The notes beneath the pieces were generated by a model that saw nothing but the letters and a program-made list of their open reading frames with translations, was not told where the DNA came from and made no database searches. Positions 21,990 through 64,000 of a DNA stretch of 64,000 nucleotides are shown one piece after another; positions within the stretch are counted from its first letter, which is position 1; each line of letters starts with the position of its first letter. A program made the position numbers and the translations under genes. This DNA comes from a virus: IMG/VR virus record IMGVR_UViG_3300045988_183539; one strand, given 5' to 3'.

Positions 21990-23105
21990 ATGGAAAATAC
22001 AAATACATCTTTAACATTAGATGAAATAATAGAAAAGAACAGAAAAGATTTATTTTCAGAATTAAATGAATTCTTAGATAATGAAAAGATAACAGATATT
22101 GAATGGGATGGCGAACATTTATGGATAACAGAGTTAGGAAAAGGCTGTTATCCTGTTGATAAAAAATTATCTATAGATTTTGTGAATAATTTAAGTATCA
22201 GATTATCAAATATAATGAAAACTAATTTTAATGCTTTAAACCCTATATTGGAAGCACATACAAAAGAATTAAGAATATCAATCTTTCACGAAAGCAGAAC
22301 TGGGGAAAAATCTATAACTATTAGGAAAATTCCTACAAATATAAGATATAACCACGAAAAATTAGTAAAAGATAATACAATCCCAGAAGAATTATTAAAC
22401 CTATTAGAAAATTGTGTTAAAGCACATTGTAATATAGTTGTTGGAGGAAGACCTCACGCAGGAAAAACAGAATTAGTTAAATACTTATCTAATTTTATAC
22501 CAGCAAATGAGAAAGTAGTGACATTAGAGGATAATGCAGAAATCCATTATAGAGAAATACATCCTAATAGAAAGAGTGTATCATTTTTAGTTGATGATAA
22601 AGTAACATATTCAGATGCTATTAAGGCTTGTTTGAGACATAATGCTGATTGGTTACTATTATCTGAAGCAAGAGGACCAGAGATTATTGAACTTCTTAAT
22701 GCACTTAGTACAGGAAGTTATTGTATGACGACAGTACACGTAGATGGAGCTAAAGACATTCCTGATAGAATGTATAATATGCTTAATAATAGTAGTATAA
22801 ATGAAAGATTTATCAATAACATATATCGTTATATGGATGTAGGAATAATAATAAAAGCTGATAAAAAAGAAAACAGAATTATATCAGAAGTTGGATTTTT
22901 TAACAGAGCAAATGTTAAGAATGAAGATGGAGAATATGAAATGCAGAACATTTATACACCTTTTTATAATACATTTGAAGGGTTAAAAGATAAAGATAAG
23001 TTACCTATAAATATCCAAAGAGCATTTGTAAGAGAAAATATTAAAAATCCATTTGAAAAACCAGAAATTACTGATGAAATAAAGGAAGTTTCTGTAAATG
23101 GTTAA
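21990..23105 (+). CDS. TadA/CpaF/VirB11-family secretion ATPase
   Basis: Walker A VVGGRPHAGKTE, Walker B/Asp box WLLLSEARGPE, 371 aa. Confidence 0.7.
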   Translation: MENTNTSLTLDEIIEKNRKDLFSELNEFLDNEKITDIEWDGEHLWITELGKGCYPVDKKLSIDFVNNLSIRLSNIMKTNFNALNPILEAHTKELRISIFHESRTGEKSITIRKIPTNIRYNHEKLVKDNTIPEELLNLLENCVKAHCNIVVGGRPHAGKTELVKYLSNFIPANEKVVTLEDNAEIHYREIHPNRKSVSFLVDDKVTYSDAIKACLRHNADWLLLSEARGPEIIELLNALSTGSYCMTTVHVDGAKDIPDRMYNMLNNSSINERFINNIYRYMDVGIIIKADKKENRIISEVGFFNRANVKNEDGEYEMQNIYTPFYNTFEGLKDKDKLPINIQRAFVRENIKNPFEKPEITDEIKEVSVNG

Positions 23106-26017: not shown

Positions 26018-27286
26018 ATGGAAAAAATAAAATATTCAGCTAGTGAAAAAAAGAATAGACATTTGTTATTTGAAACTAATAAAAATTTATTTATTACAGG
26101 AGCAGGAGGTACAGGAAAATCTACTTTTCTAAATGAATTTATAGAAAAGAACCCTAATACAATAGTAACAGCTCCAACAGGAATAGCGGCTGTAAATATA
26201 GGAGGAGTAACAACTTTTAATGCTTTTAGTATACCAATACCTTGTTTTGGAGCTACAACAAATAAACTGACTGAAGCAAAATTAAAGAAGATAATTATGG
26301 TTGATAATGTAATTATTGATGAAATAAGTATGTGCAGAGTAGATGCTTTTGTTTATATCACAAAGGTAATTAAAAAAGCTGAAAAGATAAAAGGTAAGAA
26401 GATAAGAATTATTGTTAGTGGGGATTTCTCACAGCTTCCTCCTGTAATTACAGATGAAGATGCTAAAATGTTAAAAAAATTTGGTTTTCATAAGTCTGGG
26501 TTGCCTTTTACTTGTAAAGAGTGGGAAAATTGTCATTTTACTACTATAGAGCTTACAGAAGTTAAAAGACAGGATAATCTTGAATTTATAGAAAACTTAA
26601 ATAAAGCCAGATTAGCAGATAAAAAATGTATAACATATTTTAATCAGTTTGTAACAGATGAAATTCCAGATGATTGTATTCATATATGTGGAACTAACGC
26701 AGAAAGTTCTAAACTTAATAAAGAATATTTGGACTCATTAGAGGGTATGCCATATGCGTATCAGGCAGTAAAACAAGGAAGAACTACAGGAGCATATGTA
26801 GATGATATTATTATTCTTAAAGATGGAGCAAATGTATATTTTACAGTCAATGATATATACGAGCATAAATATGTTAATGGAACATTTGGAAAAATACATA
26901 AATGTTTTAATGACCATATAGAAGTAGAAGTTGATGAAGAAATAATAGATGTTTACCCACACAGATATTCGGTTTATAATTATAAAATTATAAATGGAGT
27001 ATTAAAGAAAGAAGAAATTGGTTCAGTTTTACAAATGCCTTTAAAATTAGCTAAAGCAATTACTGTGCATAAATCCCAAGGCAAAACTTTTAATAAAGAA
27101 GTGTTTACACCTAAAATATTCGCAGCAGGACAGGCTTATGTTGCATTAAGCAGAGTAAGAAATCCTGAAGGTTTATTTTTAACAGAACCTTTACTTCCAG
27201 AACAATTAATGTCAGACAGAACAGTACTTAAATTTTATAAAAATAATTATAAATTTGAAAGTAATCGTAAAAAAACAGAAAAATAA
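26018..27286 (+). CDS. Pif1/RecD-family (AAA_30 + UvrD_C_2) DNA helicase
   Basis: ITGAGGTGKST Walker A, APTGIAAVNIGG, IIDEISM Walker B, TVHKSQGKTF, AAGQAYVALSRVRNPEGLF C-terminal motif. Confidence 0.75.
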   Translation: MEKIKYSASEKKNRHLLFETNKNLFITGAGGTGKSTFLNEFIEKNPNTIVTAPTGIAAVNIGGVTTFNAFSIPIPCFGATTNKLTEAKLKKIIMVDNVIIDEISMCRVDAFVYITKVIKKAEKIKGKKIRIIVSGDFSQLPPVITDEDAKMLKKFGFHKSGLPFTCKEWENCHFTTIELTEVKRQDNLEFIENLNKARLADKKCITYFNQFVTDEIPDDCIHICGTNAESSKLNKEYLDSLEGMPYAYQAVKQGRTTGAYVDDIIILKDGANVYFTVNDIYEHKYVNGTFGKIHKCFNDHIEVEVDEEIIDVYPHRYSVYNYKIINGVLKKEEIGSVLQMPLKLAKAITVHKSQGKTFNKEVFTPKIFAAGQAYVALSRVRNPEGLFLTEPLLPEQLMSDRTVLKFYKNNYKFESNRKKTEK

Positions 27287-31219: not shown

Positions 31220-32788
31220 ATGAGTATTGGAATATTTATAGCTGTAGTAGTTGTAGCTTTATTATTAATGAGTTATATAAAAGCACCAACAGATAAGGCT
31301 TTTATTGTATCAGGCTTAAGGAAGAAGCCTAAGTATGTAATAGGAAGGTCAGCACTTCGTATTCCATTTTTACAGAGAGTAGATAAGCTTGATTTAAAAA
31401 TGATTAGTGTTGATGTAAAAACTAAAGAGTCAGTTCCTACAAATGAATATATTAATGTAAATATTGATTCAGCAGTTAAAATTAAGGTTGGTTTATCACC
31501 AGATATGTTAGAAAAGGCAGCTAATAACTTCTTAAATAAAAATGATTTATATATTAGAGACCAGGTTGTTGATGTACTTGAAGGTAATGTTCGTGAAATT
31601 ATTGGGCAGATGAAGCTTGAAGAAATTGTTCAGGATAGAAAGTTATTTGCTGAAAAGGTACAGGAAAACGCTGCTCCAGATATGGAAAAGATGGGTCTTG
31701 AAATAGTAAGTTTTAATGTACAGAATGTTACTGATGAAGGCAATGTTATTGAAAACTTAGGTATTGATAGAGTAGTAAGTATTTCTAAGTCAGCACAGAT
31801 TTCAAGAGCAGAAAGTGAAAGAGATATTGCTGTTGCTAAAGCTAATGCTGAAAAACAGGCTAATGATGCAAGAATTGAAGCAGAAACAGCTATTGCAGAA
31901 AGAAATAACGAACTTGAAATTAAAAAGCAGGAGTTAAAGAAGGCTGCTGATATTAGAAAAGCTGAAGCAGATGCCGCTTATGAAATTCAGGAACAGGAAC
32001 AACGAAAGACTATTGAAATCACAACTGCAAATGCTAATATAGCAAAGCAGGAAAAGGAGATTGAACTTAGAGAAAAGGAAATTGCTGTTAAGGAAAAGAC
32101 ACTTGATGCTGAAATCCGTAAACAGGCAGAAGCAGAAAAGTATGCCGCACAGCAGAAGGCAGATGCAGACCTTTATTTAAGACAGAAGGAAGCAGAAGCA
32201 AAGCAGTTTGAAATTGTTAAACAAGCTGAGGCTAAGAAATCACAGGCAGAAGCAGATAGATTTGCTAAGGAACAGGAAGCAGAAGCTATTAAGGCACAGG
32301 GATTAGCAGAAGCAGAGAGCATTAAGGCTAAAGGTGTTGCTGATGCTGAAAGTATTAAGGCAAAGGGTATGGCAGAAGCAGAAGCTATGGAAAAGAAGGC
32401 AACTGCCTATGAGAAGTATGGTAAGGCTGCTATGACTGATATGATTATTAAGATACTTCCAGAAATGGCAGGACAGATTGCTAAACCTCTTGAAGCCATT
32501 GATAAGGTTACTATTATTGATGGTGGTAATGGTGAAACAGGGGTAGGTTCATTTAGTGGTAATGTTCCTTCAGTACTTGCAAAGACTATTGAATCTGTTA
32601 AGGAAACAACAGGATTTGACCTTACAGAGGTTATGAAAGCTAATACATATGATGCTAAAACAACTAAGAATGTTAATTTTACAGGACTTCCTAATGAAGT
32701 TAATGTAGATGCTTCTAATGTTTCTGATATAGAAGATGTGTTTGAAAATACTGATTTTGATAAGGCTATGAAAAAGCTTTCTGATTAA
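31220..32788 (+). CDS. flotillin-like SPFH/band-7 protein
   Basis: N-terminal TM helix, SPFH-like region, long Ala/Glu/Lys coiled-coil with EA repeats typical of FloT/YqiK. Confidence 0.7.
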   Translation: MSIGIFIAVVVVALLLMSYIKAPTDKAFIVSGLRKKPKYVIGRSALRIPFLQRVDKLDLKMISVDVKTKESVPTNEYINVNIDSAVKIKVGLSPDMLEKAANNFLNKNDLYIRDQVVDVLEGNVREIIGQMKLEEIVQDRKLFAEKVQENAAPDMEKMGLEIVSFNVQNVTDEGNVIENLGIDRVVSISKSAQISRAESERDIAVAKANAEKQANDARIEAETAIAERNNELEIKKQELKKAADIRKAEADAAYEIQEQEQRKTIEITTANANIAKQEKEIELREKEIAVKEKTLDAEIRKQAEAEKYAAQQKADADLYLRQKEAEAKQFEIVKQAEAKKSQAEADRFAKEQEAEAIKAQGLAEAESIKAKGVADAESIKAKGMAEAEAMEKKATAYEKYGKAAMTDMIIKILPEMAGQIAKPLEAIDKVTIIDGGNGETGVGSFSGNVPSVLAKTIESVKETTGFDLTEVMKANTYDAKTTKNVNFTGLPNEVNVDASNVSDIEDVFENTDFDKAMKKLSD

Positions 32789-32904
32789 TATTAAATATAT
32801 AATTTTGATTATAGGCACTAATTAATATTTTAGTTAGTGTCTATTTTTATATTTATATAAAAGATTGAAAATTTTTTTTACTTTAGAAAAATTAAAATAT
32901 ACTA

Positions 32905-32959: not shown

Positions 32960-33847
32960 ATGAAAGATTGGATAAAAAATATTCATACCATTGATAAGAC
33001 TTGTGTAAATTCTGAAGGGGAATATTATAAATATACAGAATTTAACAGAAAGCCAATATCTTTATATATCGTTGTAACAAGAGATTGTAATGCCAGATGT
33101 CCTTTTTGTGAATATAGAGGAAAACTAAAAAAAATCAATATCAATAAATTTGAAGAAATTTTTATTGAGTTAAGTAAATATTATGATATTACAACAGTTC
33201 ATTTTACAGGTGGAGAACCTACCTTAGAATTAGATACAATTAATGTATTAAGCAAAGTCATAAAAGAAATTTCTCCTTTAACTAAAACAAGCGTTAACAC
33301 CAATGGAATATTCTTAAATGAATTGTCTAATATAGATACAATAGATAATATTGCTTTAAGCAGACACACTATTATAGATAAAGATAATTTTAATATTTTT
33401 AGAACCAATAATATCGCTACATATGAAAATATTTATAATAATAATTATAAGGAAAAAATTCATTTAAGCTGTAATCTTATAAAAGGATATATAGATAGTA
33501 GTGATAAAATATTAGAATATCTTGAAATGGCATCTAAATTAGATATTAATGATGTAGGTTTTGTTAGTCTTATGCATATAAATAATTATTGTGAAGAAAA
33601 TTTTGTAGAATTTAGTAATATAATTCCAAAGGAAAAGGATTTTTTTAATAAAACAAGAGATTATAAATGTATTAATAATAAAAATATAATTACTTGCAAG
33701 TGTGAAAATTATCTTTATAGAGCTAAAAATATGAATTTTATATCAATGTATCATAGATATGCTATTAAGAATAATGAAAAAGCAGATTTTCTTGTTTATG
33801 AAAACAATCATTTAAAACAAGGCTTTAATGGAAATATATTAATATAA
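32960..33847 (+). CDS. radical SAM enzyme
   Basis: CNARCPFCEY (CxxxCxxC) near the N-terminus and a GGEP motif (HFTGGEPTL). GAGGA RBS before ATG 32960 (track start 32945). Confidence 0.6.
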   Translation: MKDWIKNIHTIDKTCVNSEGEYYKYTEFNRKPISLYIVVTRDCNARCPFCEYRGKLKKININKFEEIFIELSKYYDITTVHFTGGEPTLELDTINVLSKVIKEISPLTKTSVNTNGIFLNELSNIDTIDNIALSRHTIIDKDNFNIFRTNNIATYENIYNNNYKEKIHLSCNLIKGYIDSSDKILEYLEMASKLDINDVGFVSLMHINNYCEENFVEFSNIIPKEKDFFNKTRDYKCINNKNIITCKCENYLYRAKNMNFISMYHRYAIKNNEKADFLVYENNHLKQGFNGNILI

Positions 33848-33862
33848 AATAAGGAGATAATA

Positions 33863-34201
33863 ATGAATAATATAAGAGAATATTTTTATGAGGTATATAA
33901 GAGAGATTGGATTAATACACATATATCCAATGAAAGATATATAGGGACTATGAATGAATATTATAAGGAAAAGAAAGATAATATAAATTATCCTGATTTT
34001 CCTTCATTTAAAGACTATATAGAAGAAAATGGTTTTGATTTTGGAGAAATTTATTGTAGTTATGATGAATTTTTGGATTTTGAATATCAACAGAAAAATT
34101 ATTGGAAAAGTTTAATTAATGATGAAGAGATTTATGGTGAATATTTAGAAGATTTAGAGATATTAAAAGAAGAAGAAAAAACGGATAATTTAGAAATATA
34201 G
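33863..34201 (+). CDS. hypothetical 112-aa protein
   Basis: AAGGAG RBS. Confidence 0.45.
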   Translation: MNNIREYFYEVYKRDWINTHISNERYIGTMNEYYKEKKDNINYPDFPSFKDYIEENGFDFGEIYCSYDEFLDFEYQQKNYWKSLINDEEIYGEYLEDLEILKEEEKTDNLEI

Positions 34202-34454: not shown

Positions 34455-34601
34455 ATGGAAAAGATTATTAAGGAATTAAAAGAAGCAGGATATGATTATG
34501 GAGTAGCTATTGCAACTAAAGCAGAAATTAAAGCTGGAGCTGATTGTGGTCAATTAAGTTTAATAGTTGAAAAGAGTTCAGACAAAGTGATGAACTATTA
34601 A
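34455..34601 (+). CDS. hypothetical 48-aa protein
   Basis: AAGGAGAAAAAATATG RBS; absent from the track because of size. Confidence 0.3.
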   Translation: MEKIIKELKEAGYDYGVAIATKAEIKAGADCGQLSLIVEKSSDKVMNY

Positions 34602-34617: not shown

Positions 34618-35319
34618 ATGAAACATAATTCAAAAATGATTAATTTAGCACATAGCATATTAGGGACTGATAATAAAAACATTAATTGGAAAAAAATAGA
34701 CAAGCATTTAGATGAATATATAAAAACAATAAATAAAGTTCACACCATTAAAAATAAAGAAACAATTTTTTATATTGTAGATGATTTAAGGAATACTAAT
34801 TCAATTTCGGAAAAAACTAAGAAGATTGTATTAGAAACTTTAGATATAGATGAAAGTCTTTATAAAAATAGTATAACTAAAGACACTAATGATTTTGAAA
34901 GTTATACTTTTGATAGAAATACAAATATAAGTGATTCTGAAATAGATAAATATAAAGAGATAATTGAAGGTAATAATCATTCGGATATAAGAATTAAAAA
35001 TGAAGATATTCAGTCTGCTCATAATAAAAAATATTATGAATATGAATTAAAAGATTTTTTAAATGTATTTACTGATAATATAGAAGGAAATAATGCATTA
35101 AAAGCTTTAAGAGATGGTGATTTCGTTATAGGCGAAAATAAATATGAATGTAAGACAGGAAATATTTGCGGCACACTTTCAAAAGATTTTGTTGTAAAGT
35201 TTAAAAAAGATGATGAGCTTAGAGCTAAATTTTTAACTATCAATTGGACTAAAATAATTAACGAAGTAAACAGTATAAATAAAGAAAAACACAATGATGA
35301 TTTTGATTATGATTATTAA
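34618..35319 (+). CDS. hypothetical protein, paralog of 35361-35801
   Basis: Shared segment INWKKIDKHLDEYIKTINKVHTIKNKETIFYIVDDL...KKIVLETLDI versus IDWIKLNKNLNEYIETMSKVVNIKNKDSVYYLLTD...KKVIFRTLDI. Confidence 0.5.
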   Translation: MKHNSKMINLAHSILGTDNKNINWKKIDKHLDEYIKTINKVHTIKNKETIFYIVDDLRNTNSISEKTKKIVLETLDIDESLYKNSITKDTNDFESYTFDRNTNISDSEIDKYKEIIEGNNHSDIRIKNEDIQSAHNKKYYEYELKDFLNVFTDNIEGNNALKALRDGDFVIGENKYECKTGNICGTLSKDFVVKFKKDDELRAKFLTINWTKIINEVNSINKEKHNDDFDYDY

Positions 35320-35360
35320 TTATTTTATAAAAATAATTATATTAATATAAGGAGTTTGAT

Positions 35361-35801
35361 ATGAAACATAATATAAAGCAAATATCTTTTATGATAGCGT
35401 CTTTTAAAGATATTACTGATTCTTTTGGAGAAAATAAGAAATCTATAGAATTTTTTAAAAGGCAGGTTGAAGGTCTTGTTAATATAGGTCAGTTAAATTA
35501 TTTAGATGTTATTTTATTCTATAATATATTAGATATATATAATACTAATTTAGAAGAAATAGACTGGATTAAATTAAATAAGAATTTAAACGAATACATA
35601 GAAACTATGAGTAAGGTTGTAAATATAAAAAATAAAGATAGCGTGTATTATTTATTAACAGATAATAATAATATATCTAAGCAGACTAAAAAAGTTATAT
35701 TTAGGACATTAGATATAAAAGATGAAGATTATAAAATAAGTTCAAAGGATAATGATATATCTTTTGGTAGTTATGAAAAGAATAATTCATTTTTATATTA
35801 G
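35361..35801 (+). CDS. hypothetical protein, paralog of 34618-35319
   Basis: See above; GGAG RBS. Confidence 0.5.
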   Translation: MKHNIKQISFMIASFKDITDSFGENKKSIEFFKRQVEGLVNIGQLNYLDVILFYNILDIYNTNLEEIDWIKLNKNLNEYIETMSKVVNIKNKDSVYYLLTDNNNISKQTKKVIFRTLDIKDEDYKISSKDNDISFGSYEKNNSFLY

Positions 35802-36489
35802 AGATTGTATTAATGAACATACTAATGAATTAAGAGAAGATATTTTAGGTTCAAGAAAAGAAAGATGGATGATTGGTGTTAGTTGTATGAGTGGTTGTCC
35901 TGTAAGATGCCAGTTTTGTAATACTGGAAAATTAAAAAGGTATAGAAATCTATCTGCAAAAGAGATATATGAACAGGTTGTTTTTATATTAGACAAGCAT
36001 CCAGAGATAAAAGAGATTGATAGTAAGGAATTTAAGATTAATTATACAAGAATGGGAGAACCTTTTCTTAATATTGAAGCTGTAAAAGAAGCTATCACTC
36101 TTATAGACAATGAGCCAAGATTAAAGAATGTCAAGATACATCATTATATAAGCACAATAGGACTTAAAGGTAGTGATTTTAGTTTTGTAAAGGATAATAT
36201 TACTTTACAAATTAGCTTACATAGTCTTAATGAAGATAGAAGACACAATCTTATTCCTATAGATGGACTTATGAGTATAAAAGAACTTGGCGAAATAAGA
36301 ACAGAAAGTAATCTTAAGACAACTGTTAATATGACGCTTGTAGACACAAAAGACTTTGATATTGATATTATGAAAAAGTATTTTGACCCTAAGTATTTTT
36401 TTATTAAGCTTAGTCCTATTAATGAGAATGAGGTTAGTAAGGAACATAATATGGGTAAAGGTATTATTCATAGAGAAAATTTAATATAA
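35773..36489 (+). CDS. RlmN/Cfr-family radical SAM protein, trimmed form lacking the N-terminal domain and the C-terminal Cys-bearing tail
   Basis: GVSCMSGCPVRCQFCNTG...RNLSAKEIYEQV, TRMGEPFLN, ISTIGL and LQISLHSLNEDRRHNLIPI align with the RlmN core. No Cys after the cluster. Start uncertain (35752, 35773 or 35866). Confidence 0.6.
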   Translation: MKRIIHFYIRDCINEHTNELREDILGSRKERWMIGVSCMSGCPVRCQFCNTGKLKRYRNLSAKEIYEQVVFILDKHPEIKEIDSKEFKINYTRMGEPFLNIEAVKEAITLIDNEPRLKNVKIHHYISTIGLKGSDFSFVKDNITLQISLHSLNEDRRHNLIPIDGLMSIKELGEIRTESNLKTTVNMTLVDTKDFDIDIMKKYFDPKYFFIKLSPINENEVSKEHNMGKGIIHRENLI

Positions 36490-36608
36490 CATTTTTTTAT
36501 TATATCTTCTTAAGTTCTTATTTTTAGGATTTAAGAAGATATTTTTTTATATTCTTTTATTGTATTCTATCCCATAAATAGGGTATAATTAATTATAAGA
36601 GATTGAAT

Positions 36609-36698
36609 ATGAATAAATATATATTAATGCATAAAAATATTGAAGTAGCTTTAATGGATTTAGATGAAAATGATAGAAATGCAAAACCAATAAAATAG
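36609..36698 (+). pseudogene. truncated duplicate of the hipA-like N-terminus
   Basis: MNKYILMHKNIEVALMDLDENDRNAKPIK* versus the N-terminus of 39528 (MKDYILMHKNIEVALMKLDENDANSKPSK). Confidence 0.55.
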
Positions 36699-36750
36699 AA
36701 AATATTATTAATTTAGATTAAAAGTAAAAGAACTCTTGAAAAAAAGGGTT

Positions 36751-39075: not shown

Positions 39076-39510
39076 ATGTGTAATAATATTTCAAATAATA
39101 TAAAAGAATTAAGAGAAATGACAGGATTATCACAAAGTGAATTTGCTTCTAAATATAAAATACAAAAGAGAACCTTACAAAATTGGGAGCAAGGTATATC
39201 AAAAGCACCAGAATATTTTATAGACCTATTATCAAAAGATATTCTAAAGGCAAATGATATAGAAAAAATATACTCTATTATTGGAAAAAAAGGAAAATAT
39301 ATCTATAATGATTGTAAAGAATGTCTTATAGACGATAAAGGAAACGATATTAATATAAAAATACCTGATTTTGATAAGATAAACAAACATAACTTAGGTT
39401 TATATTGTGACTTTTTATTTGAAGACTATAAAAATAGTGTTGAAGATTTTATAAATCAATGTAAGGGAGATATTAAATCAGATATGATATGGACTACATT
39501 TGATGATTAA
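39076..39510 (+). CDS. XRE-family HTH protein (HipB-like antitoxin position)
   Basis: IKELREMTGLSQSEFASKYKIQKRTLQNWEQG HTH; immediately upstream of the HipA-like kinase. Confidence 0.6.
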   Translation: MCNNISNNIKELREMTGLSQSEFASKYKIQKRTLQNWEQGISKAPEYFIDLLSKDILKANDIEKIYSIIGKKGKYIYNDCKECLIDDKGNDINIKIPDFDKINKHNLGLYCDFLFEDYKNSVEDFINQCKGDIKSDMIWTTFDD

Positions 39511-39527
39511 TTGATGAAAGGAAGAAT

Positions 39528-40781
39528 ATGAAAGATTATATATTAATGCATAAAAATATTGAAGTGGCATTAATGAAGTTAGATGAAAATGATGCTAATT
39601 CAAAGCCATCAAAGATATATTTGAATGAAAAAGAACAAGACCATATTCCTATCGGAGCAAGAATGAATAATATTAAATTCATTAACTGGTGGCAGGATAG
39701 GGCAATCCCTAAAACAAGGCAGGGAGCAAGAACAGCTTTACAAAGATTAGGATATAGTTCAGTTACAAATGCTATGATAAATAATCTGGCTTTAAGTCTT
39801 AATGATTGTTATTGGATAAAACCCAGATATTCAGAATTAACTTGGGAAGAAGTTAATTTATTTTCAAATAATTTTGTTGATGCTTTTGGAGAACTCACCT
39901 TTAACCAAACAGAGGATTTAGATTTAAGAAAATATACTAAGTTTTTAAGTGCTGTTTCACAAGGAGAAGTTCAAAAGAAATGGTGTATAGATAAGGATAA
40001 TCATAGGTATCTTGTAAAAGGTAATTATGGCAATTCTTATCAACAAAGCATTAATGAAGTATTTGCCAGCAATTTTCATAAAGACCAAAATTTTAATAAT
40101 TACACACCTTATTATTTTTGCAATATTGAACTTACAAATAACAGAAAAGGATTAGGATGTTTTTCTTATAACTTTTGTAATGAAAATATTGAAAGTATTT
40201 CAGCTTGGGAATTATTACAAACTAGAAAGATTAAACAAAATGAAAGCTTATACTATCCTTTCAAAGATATATGCTTATCGCTAGGAATCAAAGAAGATGA
40301 TTTTGATAATTTTATTGATTATGAGATTTGTAGTGATTTTTTATTTACAAATTTAGATAGACATATGAATAATATAAGTATTTTAAGAAATCCAGACACA
40401 TTAGAAATATTAGGGTTCGCTCCTATATATGATACTGGAAATAGTATGTTTTATAATGTTTCTACTAATGAATTAAATAATGTTAAGTTAGGACAAGATA
40501 AAACACATTCATTTATAACATCAAAAGAAAATAGATTGCTAAAGTATGTTAGAAATAAAGAGATTATAAACATAGATAAAATTAATACTGATTTCTCAAT
40601 ATACGAAAAGGATATTTATGATGATTTAAGGATTTCTTTATTAAAAGAAAAATTTGAAAGAAAAATAGATTTGTTGCTGTCTTTTCAAAAAGGCAATAAT
40701 ATCTGGGAAGATAATTATAATAAAATATATATACAGAATTATAATAATTCAATAGAAACTGATGAAATAGACTTAGATTAA
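39528..40781 (+). CDS. HipA-family Ser/Thr kinase-like toxin
   Basis: C-terminal catalytic motif LDRHMNN (D-x-H-x-x-N) and FAPIYDTGNS (DFG-like) as in the HipA fold; 417 aa. Confidence 0.65.
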   Translation: MKDYILMHKNIEVALMKLDENDANSKPSKIYLNEKEQDHIPIGARMNNIKFINWWQDRAIPKTRQGARTALQRLGYSSVTNAMINNLALSLNDCYWIKPRYSELTWEEVNLFSNNFVDAFGELTFNQTEDLDLRKYTKFLSAVSQGEVQKKWCIDKDNHRYLVKGNYGNSYQQSINEVFASNFHKDQNFNNYTPYYFCNIELTNNRKGLGCFSYNFCNENIESISAWELLQTRKIKQNESLYYPFKDICLSLGIKEDDFDNFIDYEICSDFLFTNLDRHMNNISILRNPDTLEILGFAPIYDTGNSMFYNVSTNELNNVKLGQDKTHSFITSKENRLLKYVRNKEIINIDKINTDFSIYEKDIYDDLRISLLKEKFERKIDLLLSFQKGNNIWEDNYNKIYIQNYNNSIETDEIDLD

Positions 40782-47882: not shown

Positions 47883-48362
47883 ATGAAAACTAAGAAAACA
47901 CTAAAATTAGAACAAGATATATATAATGCTACAAAGAAAGTGGGAGTCTTTGGATGTTTTGAAGTGACAATAGGTTTCTTTGGTAAAGAAAGAGTAGATT
48001 ATATGACATATGATACAAAAGGTATTTTTAGATGTTATGAAATAAAAGTAAGTAAGTCTGATTTTCATAGCAATGCTAAATTAAGTTTTGTAGGTCATTA
48101 TAATTATTATGTCCTTACAAGAAAATTATACGAAGAGGTTAAAGATGAAATACCTGATTGGGTTGGTGTTTATGTAGGAGAGAACCTTGTAAAATCACCT
48201 AAAAAGCAAGATATAGACGAAAAGGTATATAAATATAGAAGAACAATAAATGGTCGCTCTAGTGAGCTTACAATACCTTATAAAGAGATGTTAAAAGAAA
48301 GTATTATTAGGTCTCTATACAGAGATGCAAATAAATGGTATATTTATAATTATCAATTATAA
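47883..48362 (+). CDS. PD-(D/E)xK nuclease-fold protein (VRR-NUC/Hjc-like)
   Basis: GVFGCFEVTIGFFGKERVDYMTYD...FRCYEIKVSKSDF has the core beta-strand order with D...E-x-K. Confidence 0.45.
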   Translation: MKTKKTLKLEQDIYNATKKVGVFGCFEVTIGFFGKERVDYMTYDTKGIFRCYEIKVSKSDFHSNAKLSFVGHYNYYVLTRKLYEEVKDEIPDWVGVYVGENLVKSPKKQDIDEKVYKYRRTINGRSSELTIPYKEMLKESIIRSLYRDANKWYIYNYQL

Positions 48363-48378
48363 AGGTGGTATATATACT

Positions 48379-49176
48379 ATGATGATAGCTTTAACATATA
48401 GATGTAATATGGGATGCACTCATTGTATTTCAGATTGCAAACCAGATGGAATAGATATGAGTAAAGACACTCTTATTGATAGTCTTGATTTTATAAATAA
48501 ACATAAAATAAAAGCAATATTGTTTTCTGGCGGTGAACCATTTGAGCATCCAGATATTATATCTTTACTTGATGTTATAGAAGAAAAATTAGATAAGAAT
48601 ACCCCTATTACCTTTGCTACAAATGGAAGAGTTTTAGCAGATAATATTGAAATTTATGAAAAAGTATCTGAATTAGTTAAGAAGAATAAGAAAAGAATAA
48701 TCATACAGGTAACAGATGATGATAGATTTTACCCTACTAAACTTAATGAAAAGCAAAGATATAGACTAGAAAAGATAGGTGCTGTTATAGAAGGTGTTCC
48801 TAGCTATGTTTCTGATAGAAATAAATGTTTATATCCACAAGGTAGAGCTTTAGATAATTTTGATGAATCTTTTTATTATACTATTGCACCTAAATGCGTT
48901 AATATACGATTATTAGTAAGACAGAATATAAATAAAATATCTAATATATGTGATACATTGCTTATGAGAGGAAAGATGTGTACTCCAGTAATTGCTCCTA
49001 ATGGTATGCTAAAAATAGGAGAGTCAGCCTTGTGTCCTGAAGTAGCTTCAATTTATGATAATGAAAAAGATATTATAAATAAAATATCTCATTTTAATTG
49101 TAATAAATGTACATATGCACTTGAACAATTAAAGAAAAATAATCTACCTGCTTATAATCTATTAATAAAGGAGTAA
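48379..49176 (+). CDS. radical SAM enzyme with Cys-rich SPASM/twitch-like C-terminal domain
   Basis: CNMGCTHC (CxxxCxxC), FSGGEPFEHPD, C-terminal CVNIRLL...CDTLLMRGKMCTPV...ALCPEV...NCNKCTYA. AAAGGTGG RBS before ATG 48379. Confidence 0.6.
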   Translation: MMIALTYRCNMGCTHCISDCKPDGIDMSKDTLIDSLDFINKHKIKAILFSGGEPFEHPDIISLLDVIEEKLDKNTPITFATNGRVLADNIEIYEKVSELVKKNKKRIIIQVTDDDRFYPTKLNEKQRYRLEKIGAVIEGVPSYVSDRNKCLYPQGRALDNFDESFYYTIAPKCVNIRLLVRQNINKISNICDTLLMRGKMCTPVIAPNGMLKIGESALCPEVASIYDNEKDIINKISHFNCNKCTYALEQLKKNNLPAYNLLIKE

Positions 49177-57001: not shown

Positions 57002-59674
57002 ATGAATAGTAATAATATTGTTGAATGTATGTTTTTTGGTCAGAGATTTAATGAAAAGCCTTCTAAAATGGAAACAGGATATATACAGAAGAATATAACG
57101 ATTGCAAACATAACAATAGAAAATTTAGCAGAAGCTCTTGTTAATGGTGCTTCTTTTAGACCAAGCATATTAATAGGGGGACGTACAAAAGATGATTGGA
57201 AAAGACAACAGCTTTTTGGTTTAGATTTTGATAGTGGTGTTTCTATTGATGCATCATACAATAAAGCTATATCATTAGGTCTTATTCCTGTATTTATGTA
57301 TACTACATTTAGTCATACTCCAGAACATCACAAATATAGAATGATTTTTTGTACAGATAAAGTCATTACAGATATGGCTTTAAGAGACAAATTCCAAGCT
57401 ACTCTTATGGGTTTAATGGGAGATATAGATAAAGTATGTTTTAACAGAGATAGATTATTTTTTGGAGGAAAAGGTAAAGAAATACTTTTTCCTAATTTCA
57501 ATGCAAAACTTAATGCAGAAGAAATTATAGATAAGTATTGGAAAGATGATTTTGAAGTATATATAAAAGGACAAACTAAGTCAAAAAAAAGAAAATTAAA
57601 GAAAACAACAGAACCTAAGCAAAATAATTCATTTACTGTTATAAATTATGAACCAGATATTGATGAAATACCTTATGCAAGTTATCCAGTAAGATGTGTT
57701 ACCTTAGGTAATTTACGTTGTCTAAAAAAATATTATGATAGTATTATTTGGGCAGAAGGAATGCACAGAGAAAGATTTATTTTTATTTACTACAATTGTG
57801 TTAAATTACTTTATGGTTCAGATAGAGCTTATAAAGAATGTATAGAATTAAATAATAGTATGGAAGAACCATTAACAACATATGAATTAAAATCTGCAAT
57901 AATACATACAGATGAACATATGGAAAATAAAGATTGGTATAGAAAAGCATTACACGGAGATGGATGTTTTATTTTTAGACCTGAAACAATTATTTCAGAT
58001 AAATGGTTAAATATAGATGAAGAAACAGCTATAAAATGTGGATTTTTTGATAATAAAATAAGAAAAGAAAAAATAGAAGAAAATAAAAAGTTAGATACTC
58101 TTAGAGATAAAGAAGTAGCTAGATTATATTTATCTGGATTAGGTTATAAAAAAATAGTTAATAACCTTTCTAAGGAATATAAATGTAGTGCATCTACAGT
58201 TAAAAGAACTATAGAGAGATTAGGAATAAAAGAAAGAAATATTTCTTTAGAAGATATAGAGTTTAATGAAAATAAGAAGTATGCCAAACATTCGTTTGGG
58301 GTGCCGAAAGTGACTAAACTAGAAAAAGAAGTTTTTAAGGTAAAGTCTAAAAAAGAAATATCAGATAATAAAGAAGATAATATAGTATTTTTAAATGAAG
58401 ACTGTAAGAGATTATATGAAACGTCTAAAAATGCAGGGTCAGAAAGTAATATTAATGAACAGGAGATAGCTATTGAAACAATATTAAATAATCCTACAGT
58501 TAATTACTGTTTAAAAGGTAAAGCTGGTACAGGTAAAAGTTATTGTATTAATAGTTTATTACAGAGATTAACAGAAGAAGAAAGAAAAAAGACATTAGTA
58601 GTAGCTCCAACAGGAGTAGCTGCTTCTAATATTACATATACAACAGCTCATACAATACATTCAATATTTGAGTTATATACATTCGTACAAAGACAAGATG
58701 AACATATTAGGATACCTAAGATTTTATTAAATGTAGATAGAATTATCATTGATGAAATAGGTATGGTAAGAAAAGATGTATTTAATCAGTTAGTACGAAT
58801 TATTAATAATGCTCAAAAATTAACAGGTAATAAAATACAGTTAATATTAGCAGGAGATTTTGGACAGATTTCCCCTGTTGTTACAAAAGAAGATAAAACT
58901 GTAATGGATATTTATTACAAGGGAAGTGAAGATAAATATTTCTGTTTTGATAGTCCTTTATGGGATAGTTTAGATATTCATACAATAGTATTAAGAAATA
59001 ATCATAGACATAATAATGATGATTGCGATGAATTACAGAAAGAATTTATTAATATATGTGATGAGATTAAATTTGGAGCTATATCAGGATTAAAATGGTT
59101 AAATAATAACTTAAAACATACTGCTATAGAAGATGGAATATATCTTTGTGCTAATAATAAACAGGTTGATGTTTATAATAAAATGTATACAGATAAATTC
59201 ACAGATAAAAAGACATATAATGCTGTATGTTTTGGAATTACATCTGAAAGAAAATTACCTGTAAAGCTTAGTTTAGAATTAGCAGTAGGTATGAAAATAA
59301 TGACTCTTGTTAATACAAAGAAATACAAGAATGGTAGTTTAGGAGTAATAACAAAGCTTTATAAGGATAAGATTAAAGTAAAGTTAGATAATACAGGAAA
59401 AGAGATTACTGTAAAATATACTGAATTTAAGATAAATGAAGAAACTGATGAAGTATTATATCAGTTACCAATAGCTATAGCATATGCTATTACTGTAAAT
59501 AAAGCACAAGGATTAACATTAGAGAAAGTAAATATTGTTCCTGGCTTTTTTGCGGCAGGACAATTATATACAGCTATAACAAGAATAAAGAATGTACATA
59601 ATATTAGTATTATTGGTGAATTAAAAGAAACTGATTTAGTTGTAGATACAAGAGCATTAAGTTTTATTGCTTAA
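57002..59674 (+). CDS. replication protein: N-terminal AEP-type Prim-Pol + PriCT-like region + HTH, fused to a C-terminal Pif1/RecD-like helicase
   Basis: N-terminal LFGLDFDSG (DxD) and TTFSHTPEHHKY (SxH) primase-polymerase motifs; HTH ASTVKRTIERLG. Helicase motifs LKGKAGTGKSY, VVAPTGVAASNI, IIDEIGMV, ITVNKAQGLT, AAGQLYTAITRIKN. GAGAGGAG RBS. Confidence 0.7.
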   Translation: MNSNNIVECMFFGQRFNEKPSKMETGYIQKNITIANITIENLAEALVNGASFRPSILIGGRTKDDWKRQQLFGLDFDSGVSIDASYNKAISLGLIPVFMYTTFSHTPEHHKYRMIFCTDKVITDMALRDKFQATLMGLMGDIDKVCFNRDRLFFGGKGKEILFPNFNAKLNAEEIIDKYWKDDFEVYIKGQTKSKKRKLKKTTEPKQNNSFTVINYEPDIDEIPYASYPVRCVTLGNLRCLKKYYDSIIWAEGMHRERFIFIYYNCVKLLYGSDRAYKECIELNNSMEEPLTTYELKSAIIHTDEHMENKDWYRKALHGDGCFIFRPETIISDKWLNIDEETAIKCGFFDNKIRKEKIEENKKLDTLRDKEVARLYLSGLGYKKIVNNLSKEYKCSASTVKRTIERLGIKERNISLEDIEFNENKKYAKHSFGVPKVTKLEKEVFKVKSKKEISDNKEDNIVFLNEDCKRLYETSKNAGSESNINEQEIAIETILNNPTVNYCLKGKAGTGKSYCINSLLQRLTEEERKKTLVVAPTGVAASNITYTTAHTIHSIFELYTFVQRQDEHIRIPKILLNVDRIIIDEIGMVRKDVFNQLVRIINNAQKLTGNKIQLILAGDFGQISPVVTKEDKTVMDIYYKGSEDKYFCFDSPLWDSLDIHTIVLRNNHRHNNDDCDELQKEFINICDEIKFGAISGLKWLNNNLKHTAIEDGIYLCANNKQVDVYNKMYTDKFTDKKTYNAVCFGITSERKLPVKLSLELAVGMKIMTLVNTKKYKNGSLGVITKLYKDKIKVKLDNTGKEITVKYTEFKINEETDEVLYQLPIAIAYAITVNKAQGLTLEKVNIVPGFFAAGQLYTAITRIKNVHNISIIGELKETDLVVDTRALSFIA
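58285..58341 (+). repeat. copy C of the conserved ~55-nt element, embedded in the primase-helicase CDS at the linker between HTH and helicase domains
   Basis: AAACATTCGTTTGGGGTGCCGAAAGTGACTAAACTAGAAAAAGAAGTTTTTAAGG; encodes ...KHSFGVPKVTKLEKEVFKV... Confidence 0.7.
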
Positions 59675-61907: not shown

Positions 61908-62798
61908 ATGGATAATACAGCTTTAGCAAAGAGAATGAAAAAATATTATGAAGAAGTACCTAAAACAAGATTAATAAGAAGAATGCCAGTATGTATAAGA
62001 TTAGATGGAAAAGCATTTCATACGTTTTTAAAGGGATTTAAAAAGCCATTTGATGATATATTTATAAAAACAATGCAGGATACTATGAGATACTTATGTC
62101 AGAATATACAGGGATGTGTATTAGGTTATTCACAATCAGATGAAATCAGTTTAATACTTATAGATTATCAAAAACTCACAACAAGTGCCTGGTTTGATTA
62201 TAATGTTCAAAAGATATGTAGTGTGTCATCAAGTATGGCTACATTAACCTTTAATAAGCTATTAAAAAACAATGTTGATAAATATAAGGTTGAAAAATGG
62301 GATGGAGTTTCAAAGTATAAAAATGGAGAAGATGAATATATTGAGACATTATTAAGAGCAGTTGATAAAGGTGCAATGTTTGATAGTAGATGTTTTAATA
62401 TACCAAAGGAAGAGGTTGCTAATTTAATATTCTGGAGACAATTTGATGCAAGCAATAATTCAGTACAAATGGTAGGACAGGCTTATTTTACGCAAGAAGA
62501 ACTTAATAACAAGAATACTAATCAGATACAGGATATGTTAATGACACAGAAAGGCATTAACTGGAATGATTATCCTATTTATCAGAAGAGAGGAAGTTGC
62601 TGTATTAAACGAAAATTCTGGATTGATAAAAATGATGGGTGTGAATTTAGTGAAGAATATTCTTGTGAATTAGAAAAAGCAGGCGTTAATAGTGATAATG
62701 CTATTAAAAAAACAGAATGGATTATAGATAAAAACATTCCTATATTCAAAGGAGAAAACAGAAAATATATAAATGAATTAATACTTTTTAAGGAGTAA
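61908..62798 (+). CDS. Thg1-like protein (TLP): tRNA-His guanylyltransferase-family 3'-5' nucleotidyltransferase
   Basis: PVCIRLDGKAFHTFLKGFKKPFD and VLGYSQSDEISLIL match the Thg1 RLDG-x-FH-x-F and GQSDEYSF catalytic motifs; C-terminal ANLIFWRQFDASNN matches the Thg1 WRQ region; 296 aa. Confidence 0.65.
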   Translation: MDNTALAKRMKKYYEEVPKTRLIRRMPVCIRLDGKAFHTFLKGFKKPFDDIFIKTMQDTMRYLCQNIQGCVLGYSQSDEISLILIDYQKLTTSAWFDYNVQKICSVSSSMATLTFNKLLKNNVDKYKVEKWDGVSKYKNGEDEYIETLLRAVDKGAMFDSRCFNIPKEEVANLIFWRQFDASNNSVQMVGQAYFTQEELNNKNTNQIQDMLMTQKGINWNDYPIYQKRGSCCIKRKFWIDKNDGCEFSEEYSCELEKAGVNSDNAIKKTEWIIDKNIPIFKGENRKYINELILFKE

Positions 62799-63390: not shown

Positions 63391-63615
63391 ATGGAAAAAG
63401 GAACAGATATATGTTTAGCAGAGATAGCTTTTTTAATATTAAGAAATATTCCTAATGGGTATTCAAAAGAAGAAAAAGACTGTTTTGGAAATGGTGTTAT
63501 TACTATGTTAAACACTTTACAAAGTACACTTGATATATTAAAAGAAAATTCTAATATAAGTATGGAAGATATTGAAAATATTATAAAAAAAGAGATTTTA
63601 TTGGGGAAGGAATAA
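63391..63615 (+). CDS. hypothetical 74-aa protein
   Basis: ORF track. Confidence 0.35.
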   Translation: MEKGTDICLAEIAFLILRNIPNGYSKEEKDCFGNGVITMLNTLQSTLDILKENSNISMEDIENIIKKEILLGKE

Positions 63616-63621
63616 ATATAT

Positions 63622-64000
63622 ATGGTCAAAAAAATAAGATTAATTGGAGACAAAACAACTAATTTATTTTGTATGAATTTAAAACAATATTTTAATTTTA
63701 TAGGTACTTATGTTGAAATAGATTATGTGTATGATTATATTTATAAAAACGATTTTATAGATAAAGAGTTATTAAATGATTTATTTATAATAACAGATAA
63801 TAAAGAAAATAATATAAATATTGAGTATGATTTAGTAATTTCAACAATTAAAAATACAGGTAGTGACATTTATATTATAGAAGACAGTATAAATCAAATA
63901 AAATACAATTATGAAGAAGACATAAATATTATTTTATCTCTATTATTAAAAAATAATTATATTACAGAAGATGAATATGATGTTTTAAATATATTAAATC
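63622..64000 (+). CDS. hypothetical protein, 5' portion (continues beyond the window)
   Basis: GGGGAAGGAATAAATATATATG RBS; open frame to the window end. Confidence 0.35.
   Translation, partial: MVKKIRLIGDKTTNLFCMNLKQYFNFIGTYVEIDYVYDYIYKNDFIDKELLNDLFIITDNKENNINIEYDLVISTIKNTGSDIYIIEDSINQIKYNYEEDINIILSLLLKNNYITEDEYDVLNILN

What the first reader, a model, noticed from the sequence alone, without database searches (positions are those of the whole stretch)
35773..36489. Minimal RlmN/Cfr-like radical SAM enzyme lacking both the N-terminal domain and the C-terminal catalytic Cys
The core aligns convincingly with RlmN/Cfr (GVSCMSGCPVRCQFCNTG, NLSAKEIYEQV, MGEPFLN, ISTIGL, LQISLHSLNEDRRHNLIPI). The [4Fe-4S] Cys motif sits only about 45 residues from the N-terminus, so the N-terminal substrate-binding domain is missing. 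No Cys occurs after the cluster motif, whereas canonical RlmN/Cfr need a C-terminal Cys (Cys355 in E. coli RlmN) for methyl transfer. Options are a Cfr-like resistance determinant with altered chemistry, a neofunctionalised enzyme such as a nucleic-acid modifier in a defence or counter-defence role, or a decaying gene. It sits beside paralogous small genes and a hipA fragment in a rearranged region.
Basis: partly seen in the sequence, partly recalled or inferred. Interest (0 to 1): 0.7.

Follow-up and report, generated by a model that had tools for sequence, protein, structure and literature searches.

The report
Split RlmN-like radical SAM enzyme, damaged copy
The gene is the large piece of a two-piece version of the RNA-methylating enzyme RlmN, common in phages and mobile elements, whose "missing" catalytic cysteine is encoded by a separate 48-codon gene 1.2 kb upstream. 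The copy in this window has also lost its first 37 codons.

Summary
ORF 35773-36489 is an RlmN/Cfr-like radical SAM core with the cluster motif near its N-terminus and no later Cys.

The interpretation needs two corrections.

First, the ORF belongs to a large family of 262-266 aa proteins found in crAss-like, FelixO1-like and other phages, in giant mobile elements and in MAGs. Nearly every locus also has a tiny same-strand gene (PEP, about 40 aa) ending in "AGAACGQLS". PEP aligns with the C-terminal stretch of E. coli RlmN, and its Cys aligns with Cys355, the methyl carrier. In fused relatives the same module is part of the core polypeptide. The enzyme is therefore split, not Cys-less. In this window PEP lies at 34455-34601.

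Second, this copy is damaged. A partial duplication of the upstream gene, followed by a deletion, removed the ribosome-binding site and 37 conserved N-terminal codons (three beta-strands). The window's PEP alone has Asp instead of the invariant Ala before the Cys.

The family does lack RlmN's N-terminal helical domain. It also has Gly at the resolving Cys118 position in 118 of 118 members, so its turnover chemistry may differ from RlmN's. The substrate is unknown, and nothing supports a Cfr-type resistance role. I found no description of a split RlmN.

The parts
35773..36489 (+). Core (large) subunit of the split RlmN-like radical SAM enzyme. This is a 5'-truncated allele. An alternative in-frame ATG lies at 35752. 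Homology to the family begins at about 35785-35804.
   Evidence: ORF and motifs. RlmN/Cfr similarity. The family alignment shows 37 N-terminal residues missing and the C-terminus intact. The DNA junction against L004 and L001. No Shine-Dalgarno sequence, whereas the native start in L004 and L001 has AAGGAG.
34455..34601 (+). PEP, a 48-aa small subunit carrying the RlmN Cys355-equivalent cysteine. Its sequence is MEKIIKELKEAGYDYGVAIATKAEIKAGADCGQLSLIVEKSSDKVMNY. It has a strong AAGGAG ribosome-binding site. Asp replaces the otherwise invariant Ala before the Cys (GCT to GAT).
   Evidence: Conserved mini-ORF in related loci. Alignment to E. coli RlmN residues about 327-365 with Cys aligned to Cys355. 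The PEP profile hits the C-termini of fused relatives and no reversed decoys. DNA comparison with L032 and L004.
32960..33847 (+). Second radical SAM protein (c9), MoaA/viperin-like. It is the recurrent partner of PEP and the core in the giant mobile elements. The mechanical ORF starts at TTG 32945.
   Evidence: Pfam Radical_SAM and NCBIfam MoaA-like hits, all far below their cut-offs. Orthologues at 42-55% identity lie next to PEP in L001, L034, L036 and L038.
34618..35319 (+). c4a, a protein of unknown function that travels with c9, PEP and the core in the giant elements.
   Evidence: Homologues in L001, L004, L034, L036 and L038. No Pfam, PHROG or NCBIfam match.
35361..35801 (+). c4b, a partial tandem duplicate of c4 (N-terminal 146 aa). 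Its truncated 3' end abuts and overlaps the truncated core. This marks the deletion that removed the core's 5' end.
   Evidence: blastn shows 35350-35544 matching L004 383-577. blastp against c4 family members. The junction is identical, with 0 differences, in the sister element L032.
36502..36542 (+). Terminator-like hairpin plus T-run directly after the core gene. Together with the hairpin at 32811-32844 it brackets the c9-to-core block.
32811..32844 (+). Terminator-like hairpin between the flotillin gene and c9.

Best explanation
ORF 35773-36489 is the catalytic core subunit of a split (two-polypeptide) class-A radical SAM methylase of the RlmN/Cfr type.

The RlmN C-terminal stretch, which carries the methyl-carrier cysteine, has become a separate roughly 40-aa protein. 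I call it PEP. It lies at 34455-34601 in this window.

Inferred mechanism, by analogy with RlmN:
1. PEP docks on the open side of the core's partial TIM barrel.
2. Its Cys is S-methylated by one SAM.
3. A second SAM is cleaved at the CPVRCQFC [4Fe-4S] cluster to give 5'-dA radical.
4. That radical abstracts H from the S-methyl group.
5. The resulting radical adds to an sp2 carbon of an adenine in a nucleic acid. tRNA or rRNA is the most likely target, and DNA is not excluded.

Shown here:
- The gene fission.
- The near-obligate co-occurrence of core and PEP.
- The homology of PEP to the Cys355 stretch.
- The existence of fused and permuted relatives.

Inferred only:
- Docking of PEP on the core.
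- Methyl transfer.
- The substrate.

The family lacks RlmN's N-terminal helical domain and has Gly at the resolving Cys118 position, so substrate recognition and product release probably differ from RlmN.

The copy in this window is a damaged allele. A deletion next to a partial duplication of the upstream gene removed the ribosome-binding site and 37 conserved codons (three beta-strands). Its PEP carries a unique Ala-to-Asp change next to the Cys. The module is therefore probably impaired or inactive here.
For: Family:
- There are 2026 hits, and the top 120 are 262-266 aa proteins at 65-94% identity.
- They share a conserved N-terminus that is absent from the window copy.

PEP co-occurrence:
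- PEP is present on the same strand in 37 of the first 39 loci. The 2 exceptions are both cut by contig ends.
- PEP is present in 79 of 80 independent IMG/VR loci.

PEP is a separate cistron:
- It is in a different frame from the core in 24 of 27 adjacent cases.
- The gap is 8-66 nt, and 18 of 27 have a Shine-Dalgarno-like motif.

Homology of PEP to the RlmN C-terminus:
- PEP aligns with E. coli K-12 RlmN residues about 327-365 (SKVLMSYGF...DIDAACGQL), with its Cys aligned to Cys355.
- The PEP profile matches the C-terminus of fused relatives: P0202 at 28 bits, P0223 and P0266 at 19 bits.
- It matches the N-terminus of permuted fusions (P0124 at 40 bits).
- It matches none of the reversed decoys.
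- In alignment A5, the split cores end exactly where the fused relatives continue into a linker plus the Cys module.

Structure:
- The fused relative models as a complete RlmN fold, with pLDDT 87.8 and a C-terminal helix-strand-helix-Cys module.
- Its Foldseek matches to E. coli RlmN 5hr7 and 3rfa have E about 1e-14 over 330-348 columns.

Published roles of the two cysteines:
- Cys355 (Cfr Cys338) is the methyl carrier: PMC9692996, PMC4689488, PMC12887959.
- Cys118 resolves the cross-link: PMC9692996.

Damage in this window:
-.
- The three lost strands are E2-9, E12-18 and E24-31 of the model.
Against: - No biochemical data exist for any member.
- The PEP profile alone found nothing in the PDB with default filters, and canonical RlmN proteins match it only on the AACGQL core at 5-8 bits. 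The homology therefore rests on the graded series of fused relatives and on positional correspondence.
- The resolving Cys (RlmN Cys118) is Gly in 118 of 118 family members. No other second Cys is universal. Canonical catalytic turnover is therefore not assured.
- The truncated allele keeps an open frame. It shows dN/dS of 0.15 against the intact L004 copy, and 3 synonymous to 1 non-synonymous differences against a sister element with the same junction. Loss of function is therefore not proven.
Confidence: 0.72

Rival explanations
1. First reader's reading. The ORF is a self-contained minimal RlmN/Cfr-like enzyme that truly lacks a methyl-carrier Cys. It would therefore have new chemistry, or act as a Cfr-like antibiotic-resistance determinant.
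For: The polypeptide has no Cys after the cluster motif. It also lacks the RlmN N-terminal domain.
Against: A Cys355-equivalent module is encoded in trans in essentially every locus, and in cis in fused relatives. Cfr models score 57-61 bits against cut-offs of 468-550. No full-length homologue exists in 72,556 plasmid records, where all 98 hits are partial matches and those listed with annotation are canonical RlmN.
Confidence: 0.04
2. The truncated allele in this window is still functional. On this view the N-terminal three-stranded sheet is dispensable, or translation starts at 35752 or 35773 by coupling to c4b, and the module works here.
For: The ORF is intact. dN/dS against the intact L004 copy is 0.15. 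The same junction persists in a sister element that differs by 1-2% in DNA, and the core shows 3 synonymous to 1 non-synonymous differences against it. The whole block sits between two terminator-like hairpins, so it would be co-transcribed.
Against: The lost 37 residues are among the best conserved in the family, with many invariant positions. They form three strands of the fold. There is no Shine-Dalgarno sequence upstream of either ATG, whereas native starts have AAGGAG. The window's PEP has Asp at a site that is Ala in all but 2 other copies, which have Ser. The dN/dS value mostly reflects history before the deletion.
Confidence: 0.25
3. RiPP-like pathway. PEP is a precursor peptide that is modified by the radical SAM enzymes (core plus c1 or c9) and the small methyltransferase c2. 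The product would be a modified peptide rather than a modified nucleic acid.
For: The cassette of a small peptide gene, two radical SAM genes and a SAM-methyltransferase-like gene (core-c1-c2-PEP) occurs in 44 of 80 viral loci and in 14 MAG loci. In the giant elements PEP lies downstream of the second radical SAM gene (c9), directly after it in most.
Against: About 30 of 80 loci have only core plus PEP. PEP is homologous to an integral part of RlmN, and is fused to the core in relatives at either end. PEP is conserved along its whole length, unlike the leader/core pattern of RiPP precursors. No protease or exporter recurs in these loci.
Confidence: 0.08

Closest known systems
RlmN (23S rRNA m2A2503 / tRNA m2A37 methyl synthase, class A radical SAM methylase; TIGR00048; PDB 3RFA, 5HR7)
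   Same: - CX3CX2C cluster motif.
- The MGEP, ISTxG and LQxSLHS core motifs.
- The RlmN-type partial TIM barrel, which is the best sequence and fold match.
- The three "additional beta-strands" before the core, present in the family's full-length members.
- A C-terminal helix-strand-loop module with AACGQL, whose Cys aligns with Cys355.
   Different: - The Cys module is a separate polypeptide (PEP).
- The N-terminal helical domain (about 65-75 aa) is absent.
- The resolving Cys118 is replaced by Gly in 118 of 118 members.
- The core is 262-266 aa rather than 350-385 aa.
- The core scores 79-80 bits against the 290-bit family cut-off.
- Its distribution is phage and mobile-element rather than housekeeping.
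- The window copy additionally lacks the beta-strand extension.
Cfr (23S rRNA m8A2503 methyltransferase, PhLOPSA resistance; NF000424, TIGR04432; PDB 9P0P)
   Same: Same enzyme class and fold. It is the second-best structural match. It is carried on mobile elements.
   Different: The family scores lower against Cfr than against RlmN, at 57-61 bits against cut-offs of 468-550. It also differs by the split Cys module, the absence of a Cys105/Cys118 equivalent and the absence of an N-terminal domain. No full-length homologue was found in the plasmid collection.
Short, unsplit phage RlmN-like proteins (for example Stenotrophomonas phage BUCTxx99 WPH68542.1 at 319 aa, or cluster representatives P0202, P0184 and P0266; PHROG 24834)
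   Same: They share the lack of an N-terminal helical domain, the phage context and the same core. Their Cys module has the same helix-strand-loop pattern as PEP.
   Different: In these proteins the Cys module is fused to the core: C-terminally in most, and N-terminally in P0124 and P0142. Some keep the Cys118 equivalent (the Stenotrophomonas phage protein and P0184), but most do not.

Membership tests
Class A radical SAM methylases (RlmN/Cfr) | CX3CX2C motif binding the radical SAM [4Fe-4S] cluster, together with SAM-binding core motifs | tested here: met
   CPVRCQFC, MGEP, ISTIG and LQISLHS are present. They are invariant across the family. Pfam Radical_SAM scores 39.9 bits, above its 29.5 cut-off.
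Class A radical SAM methylases (RlmN/Cfr) | Methyl-carrier Cys on the C-terminal stretch (RlmN Cys355, Cfr Cys338) | tested here: inconclusive
   The feature is absent from the core polypeptide. It is present in a separate 48-aa ORF at 34455-34601 that aligns with RlmN 327-365. It is therefore met at the level of the system but not of the protein. Function in trans was not tested.
Class A radical SAM methylases (RlmN/Cfr) | Second conserved Cys that resolves the enzyme-RNA cross-link (RlmN Cys118, Cfr Cys105), 7 residues before the first cluster Cys | tested here: not met
   The aligned position is Gly in the window protein and in 118 of 118 family members. A Cys at -4 occurs in 103 of 118 and a Cys in YTKxC in 85 of 118, but neither is universal.
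RlmN (TIGR00048 equivalog) | Whole-protein score above the curated cut-off (290 bits) | tested here: not met
   79.4 bits for the window protein and 80.3 bits for full-length P0002. Only model positions 86-244 of 355 are matched.
RlmN (TIGR00048 equivalog) | N-terminal helical domain preceding the beta-strand extension | tested here: not met
   Family proteins start at the beta-strand extension. The window copy lacks even that.
RlmN (TIGR00048 equivalog) | C2 methylation of A2503 in 23S rRNA or of A37 in tRNA | not testable with these tools
   This needs in vitro or in vivo assays.
Cfr (NF000424 / TIGR04432) | Score above the curated cut-off, and C8 methylation of A2503 giving PhLOPSA resistance | tested here: not met
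   60.8 bits against a cut-off of 530, and 56.7 bits against 550. The activity itself is not testable here.
Split RlmN-like family defined here (core + PEP) | A core of about 265 aa with the conserved N-terminus FANGxVYxLxTxDGxPxExTDTFLPxYTK | tested here: not met
   The window copy starts at about family residue 34-38. The preceding 37 codons are replaced by the 3' end of c4b.
Split RlmN-like family defined here (core + PEP) | A same-strand mini-ORF nearby encoding GYDYxxAxATxAExxxxAACGQ | tested here: met
   ORF 34455-34601 scores 89.7 bits against the PEP profile. Ala is replaced by Asp before the Cys.

The most novel reading that the evidence does not exclude
The family has no equivalent of the resolving Cys118, whose loss in RlmN traps a covalent enzyme-RNA adduct. 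The Cys also sits on a small, separately made peptide. PEP may therefore be a consumable reagent. On this reading the system would covalently attach a roughly 40-aa peptide, through a methylene bridge, to an adenine in tRNA, rRNA or DNA. That would be a phage-encoded peptide-nucleic-acid conjugation used for host takeover, or for protecting or marking phage nucleic acid, rather than simple methylation.
Probability: 0.1. Interest if true: 0.95.

Novelty: new variant of a known kind. Interest (0 to 1): 0.72.

Why it matters
Class A radical SAM methylases are defined by two cysteines in a single polypeptide. Here a widespread clade puts the methyl-carrier Cys on a separate mini-protein and has no resolving Cys. 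The clade has relatives on 261 IMG/VR contigs and includes cultured crAss-like, FelixO1-like and Moorella phages.

- **Enzymology.** The family offers a natural trans system for dissecting the RlmN ping-pong mechanism.
- **Phage biology.** It points to an unrecognised nucleic-acid modification, or a translation-directed function, in abundant gut phages.
- **Annotation.** "Cys-less RlmN" calls are artefacts of missing a 40-codon gene. The mini-gene has no match in Pfam, NCBIfam or PHROGs.
- **This window.** The gene should be recorded as a 5'-truncated, probably impaired copy.

Tried and rejected
- **Defence system.** PADLOC gives no hit for the core, c9 or c4.
- **Plasmid-borne resistance gene.** The plasmid collection has no full-length homologue.
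- **PEP profile against PDB sequences.** Nothing was found at default filters. Homology was instead shown with hmmsearch --max against RlmN-like proteins, using reversed decoys as a control.
- **Structure of concatenated core+PEP.** A natural fused relative was modelled instead.
- **AFDB50 fold search.** The library was unavailable.
- **tRNA adjacency as a clue to the substrate.** tRNA arrays flank or enclose the gene in about 9 of 26 diverse viral loci and in three cultured phages. There are none in the large block of near-identical core-c1-c2-PEP loci (mostly from one sample) or in this window. This is suggestive only.
- **Are c1 and c9 the same family?** hhalign shows only generic radical SAM core similarity (96.8% probability over 150 columns). 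c2 and c4 are unrelated.
- **A second core copy, or the lost 5' piece, elsewhere in the window.** None was found. The weak tblastn hit at 63484-63891 is spurious.
- **Read-through or recoding as the cause of the split.** This is rejected because PEP is out of frame in 24 of 27 adjacent cases, and is often 1-2 kb away or upstream.
- **Literature searches for a split or phage RlmN.** Nothing relevant was found.
Full report
**1. The observation.**
Window 35773-36489 (+) is an open frame of 238 aa, or 245 aa from an in-frame ATG at 35752. The first cluster Cys is residue 42, and no Cys follows CPVRCQFC.

The similarity to RlmN/Cfr is well above chance:
- Pfam Radical_SAM, E = 6.5e-10.
- NCBIfam RlmN TIGR00048, E = 2.4e-22, covering model positions 95-244 of 355, but at 79 bits against a cut-off of 290.
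- Cfr models at 57-61 bits against cut-offs of 468-550.

The surroundings are as described. There are two paralogous upstream ORFs, a 5' fragment of a hipA-like gene at about 36610-36699, and gene-order rearrangements relative to related contigs.

The window has about 25% GC, and nearly all its genes are on one strand. It carries a TraG/VirB4-like ATPase, a T2SSE ATPase, PIF1-type helicases and a Thg1-like gene. It has no phage structural matches. It therefore looks like a large conjugative or plasmid-like element.

**2. The gene model is a truncated member of a large family.**
A protein search returned 2026 hits. The best 120 are 262-266 aa proteins at 65-94% identity.

Their alignment shows a strongly conserved N-terminus (MLxExxxRxFANGxVYxLxTEDGYPIETTDTFLPFYTKDCINEH...). 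The window protein lacks this up to about "FY.RDCINEH", while its C-terminus is complete.

At the DNA level, window 35804-36489 matches L004 1420-2105 at 94%, where the L004 gene starts at 1308. Window 35350-35544 is a second, diverged copy of the 5' part of the upstream gene c4. So a partial tandem duplicate of c4 (35361-35801) is joined by a deletion to codon 34-38 of the radical SAM gene.

Native starts in L004 and L001 have an AAGGAG ribosome-binding site. The window's ATGs have none.

In a confident model of the full-length homologue P0002 (pLDDT 85.6), the lost residues form three beta-strands: E2-9, E12-18 and E24-31.

The same junction occurs in a sister element (L032/L033, 98-99% DNA identity, with indels elsewhere), so it is not an assembly error. 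dN/dS against the intact L004 copy is 0.15. Against the sister element the core differs at 3 synonymous and 1 non-synonymous sites. The frame is therefore intact and was recently constrained, but these numbers cannot show whether it still functions.

**3. The "missing" cysteine is encoded in trans.**
I compared neighbourhoods in related contigs. A 41-52 aa ORF stood out because it is 77-90% identical between elements whose other proteins are 40-55% identical. Its sequence is MEKIIKELKEAGYDYGVAIATKAEIKAGAACGQLSLIVEN.

A motif and profile search found this ORF (PEP):
- In 37 of the first 39 loci. The two exceptions are both cut by contig ends.
- In 79 of 80 independent IMG/VR loci, always on the same strand as the core.

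In the 27 viral loci where PEP directly follows the core:
- It is in another frame in 24.
- The gap is 8-66 nt.
- Eighteen have a Shine-Dalgarno-like motif.

PEP is therefore a separate cistron and not a read-through product.

I took the E. coli K-12 rlmN sequence from the genome record. Its Cys residues are at 118, 125, 129, 132 and 355, plus three others. A core+PEP concatenate aligns end-to-end with it. PEP falls on RlmN residues about 327-365 ([28 protein letters not shown]), and its only conserved Cys falls on Cys355.

A PEP profile searched with all filters off against 273 RlmN-like proteins gave these results:
- It hit the C-terminus of fused short relatives: P0202 at 28 bits, P0223 and P0266 at 19 bits.
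- It hit the N-terminus of two permuted fusions: P0124 at 40 bits, and P0142.
- It hit the AACGQL core of canonical RlmN at 5-8 bits.
- It hit nothing in the reversed sequences.

In a joint alignment, the split cores end exactly where the fused relatives continue into a linker plus this module.

The fused relative P0202 models as a complete RlmN fold (pLDDT 87.8). Its C-terminal module runs helix 281-293, strand 296-299, helix 301-308, Cys313. It matches E. coli RlmN structures at E about 1e-14 over 330-348 columns. The core-only model reaches only E = 4e-9.

According to the literature, Cys355 (Cfr Cys338) sits on a flexible C-terminal loop and carries the methyl group (PMC9692996, PMC4689488, PMC12887959).

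In the window, PEP is at 34455-34601 and has a strong AAGGAG site. Its motif reads GADCGQL. The residue before the Cys is Ala in all but 2 other copies seen, which have Ser. The sister element L032 has GCT where the window has GAT.

**4. What the family lacks.**
- **N-terminal helical domain.** The RlmN helical domain is absent. Family proteins begin at the beta-strand extension.
- **Resolving cysteine.** The position of Cys118 is Gly in 118 of 118 members. Cys118 is described as indispensable for resolving the enzyme-RNA cross-link, and its C118A mutant traps the adduct (PMC9692996).
- **No universal second Cys.** A Cys four residues before the cluster occurs in 103 of 118 members, and a Cys in YTKxC in 85 of 118. 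No member of this close set lacks both. More distant members do lack both (L022, P0128).

Many fused short phage relatives also lack the Cys118 equivalent. Product release may therefore use another base, or may not occur at all.

**5. Distribution and partners.**
The core+PEP pair occurs in the following places:
- Cultured phages, at the stated identity to P0002: crAss-like Kehishuvirus 'tikkala' (61%), Moorella phage MTATph1 (44%), Pectobacterium phages Wc4, Arno18 and Arno162, Yersinia phage P778 (34-35%), and the 258-kb Vibrio phage D479.
- 261 IMG/VR contigs.
- MAG contigs labelled uncultured Bacilli, Clostridia, Tenericutes, Bacteroidales, Cytophagaceae, Pelosinus and Methanoregula, and the genome of the Bacteroides congonensis type strain.
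- No plasmid record.

Three architectures recur:
- Core-PEP alone, in about 30 of 80 viral loci.
- Core - c1 - c2 - PEP, in 44 of 80 viral loci and 14 MAG loci. c1 is a MoaA/viperin-like radical SAM protein with a CX5CX2C or CX11CX2C motif. c2 is a 146-aa SAM-methyltransferase-like protein (PHROG 5399).
- In giant elements including this window: c9 - PEP - c4 - core, in varying order. c9 is a MoaA-like radical SAM protein and c4 is an unknown protein of 233-320 aa.

c1 and c9 share only generic radical SAM core similarity, and c2 and c4 are unrelated. The minimal unit is therefore core+PEP, and the roles of the accessory proteins are unknown.

tRNA arrays flank or enclose the gene in several phages, but not in most loci. 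This is a weak hint that tRNA is the substrate.

Neither PEP nor the core is covered by a named family. PEP has no Pfam, NCBIfam or PHROG match. The core falls in PHROG 24834, annotated "unknown function".

**6. Mechanism, committed.**
The most likely reading is a two-subunit RlmN-type methyl synthase:
1. PEP docks on the core.
2. Its Cys is methylated by SAM.
3. 5'-dA radical from a second SAM activates the S-methyl group.
4. The activated group adds to an adenine carbon in a nucleic acid.

The fission and the homology are shown. Docking, chemistry and substrate are inferred.

Because there is no Cys118 equivalent, a peptide-nucleic-acid adduct as the end product cannot be excluded. I put this at about 10%.

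For this window, the module is probably impaired (about 60-70%). The core lacks 37 conserved residues and a ribosome-binding site, and PEP has a unique Asp next to its Cys.

**7. Comparison and novelty.**
The closest known enzyme is RlmN, followed by Cfr. As a protein it fails the curated family cut-offs and lacks two of RlmN's defining features in cis.

As a system it is a new variant of class A radical SAM methylases: split, without the N-terminal domain and without the resolving Cys.

I found no description of such a split in the searchable literature. That library is incomplete.

Noticed in passing
L025:143-1768 (Methanoregula MAG contig, 2.8 kb): The core gene carries an intein-like insert of roughly 320 aa placed directly after the CPVGCKFC cluster motif. 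PEP follows the gene as usual.
   Followed up: no
Proteins P0124 (315 aa) and P0142 (695 aa): These are permuted natural fusions, with the PEP module at the N-terminus of the core instead of the C-terminus. P0124 scores 40 bits against the PEP profile.
   Followed up: partly
L036:4158-9703 (99.6-kb metagenomic contig): There are in-frame TAG codons in the c4-like gene (6), the c9-like gene (2) and a 600-aa gene (23), but none in the core. In the c4 and c9 alignments the TAG positions mostly align with Ser in homologues. This suggests amber recoding in that element.
   Followed up: partly
L117:10132-10245; L018:6929-7057; L067:9758-9883: These are PEP variants. L117 has lost the CGQL motif (AGAASIITEE). 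L018 and L067 have CGM instead of CGQ.
   Followed up: no
window 36610-36699 and 39076-40781: A 29-codon 5' fragment of a hipA-like gene lies just after the core's terminator. A complete HTH plus HipA-like pair lies 2.4 kb further on. In L003-L005 the HTH-HipA pair directly follows the core. A HipA_C protein also follows the core in L038.
   Followed up: partly
window 31220-32788: An SPFH/flotillin gene lies immediately upstream of the module, separated from it by a terminator-like hairpin. An SPFH gene also sits two genes upstream of the core in crAss-like Kehishuvirus (L027 4455-5672). "Prohibitin" annotations surround the homologue in Stenotrophomonas phage BUCTxx99.
   Followed up: no
window 48325-49176: A third radical SAM gene (283 aa) gives weak matches to prokaryotic viperin models (PADLOC pVip, E = 1.8e-9) and to a tungsten-cofactor maturase model. 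All scores are far below family cut-offs.
   Followed up: no
window 33863-34201: A 112-aa ORF between c9 and PEP is absent from the sister element L032, so it is an insertion or deletion difference of about 345 nt. It has a weak NGO_1070-like Pfam hit (E = 0.03).
   Followed up: no
window 749-3217, 21990-23105, 26018-27286, 57002-59674, 61908-62798: These ORFs encode a TraG/VirB4-like ATPase, a T2SSE (VirB11/TadA-like) ATPase, two PIF1-like helicases and a Thg1-like tRNA-His guanylyltransferase. No phage structural PHROG matched among the large ORFs. The element looks like a large conjugative plasmid or ICE of a low-GC host.
   Followed up: partly
L006-L020, L026 (MAG contigs): The core-c1-c2-PEP cassette sits in unrelated chromosomal neighbourhoods: NAD salvage genes, ComEC/HolA, and membrane proteins. 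No other phage genes are nearby, so it behaves as a self-contained mobile four-gene cassette.
   Followed up: partly
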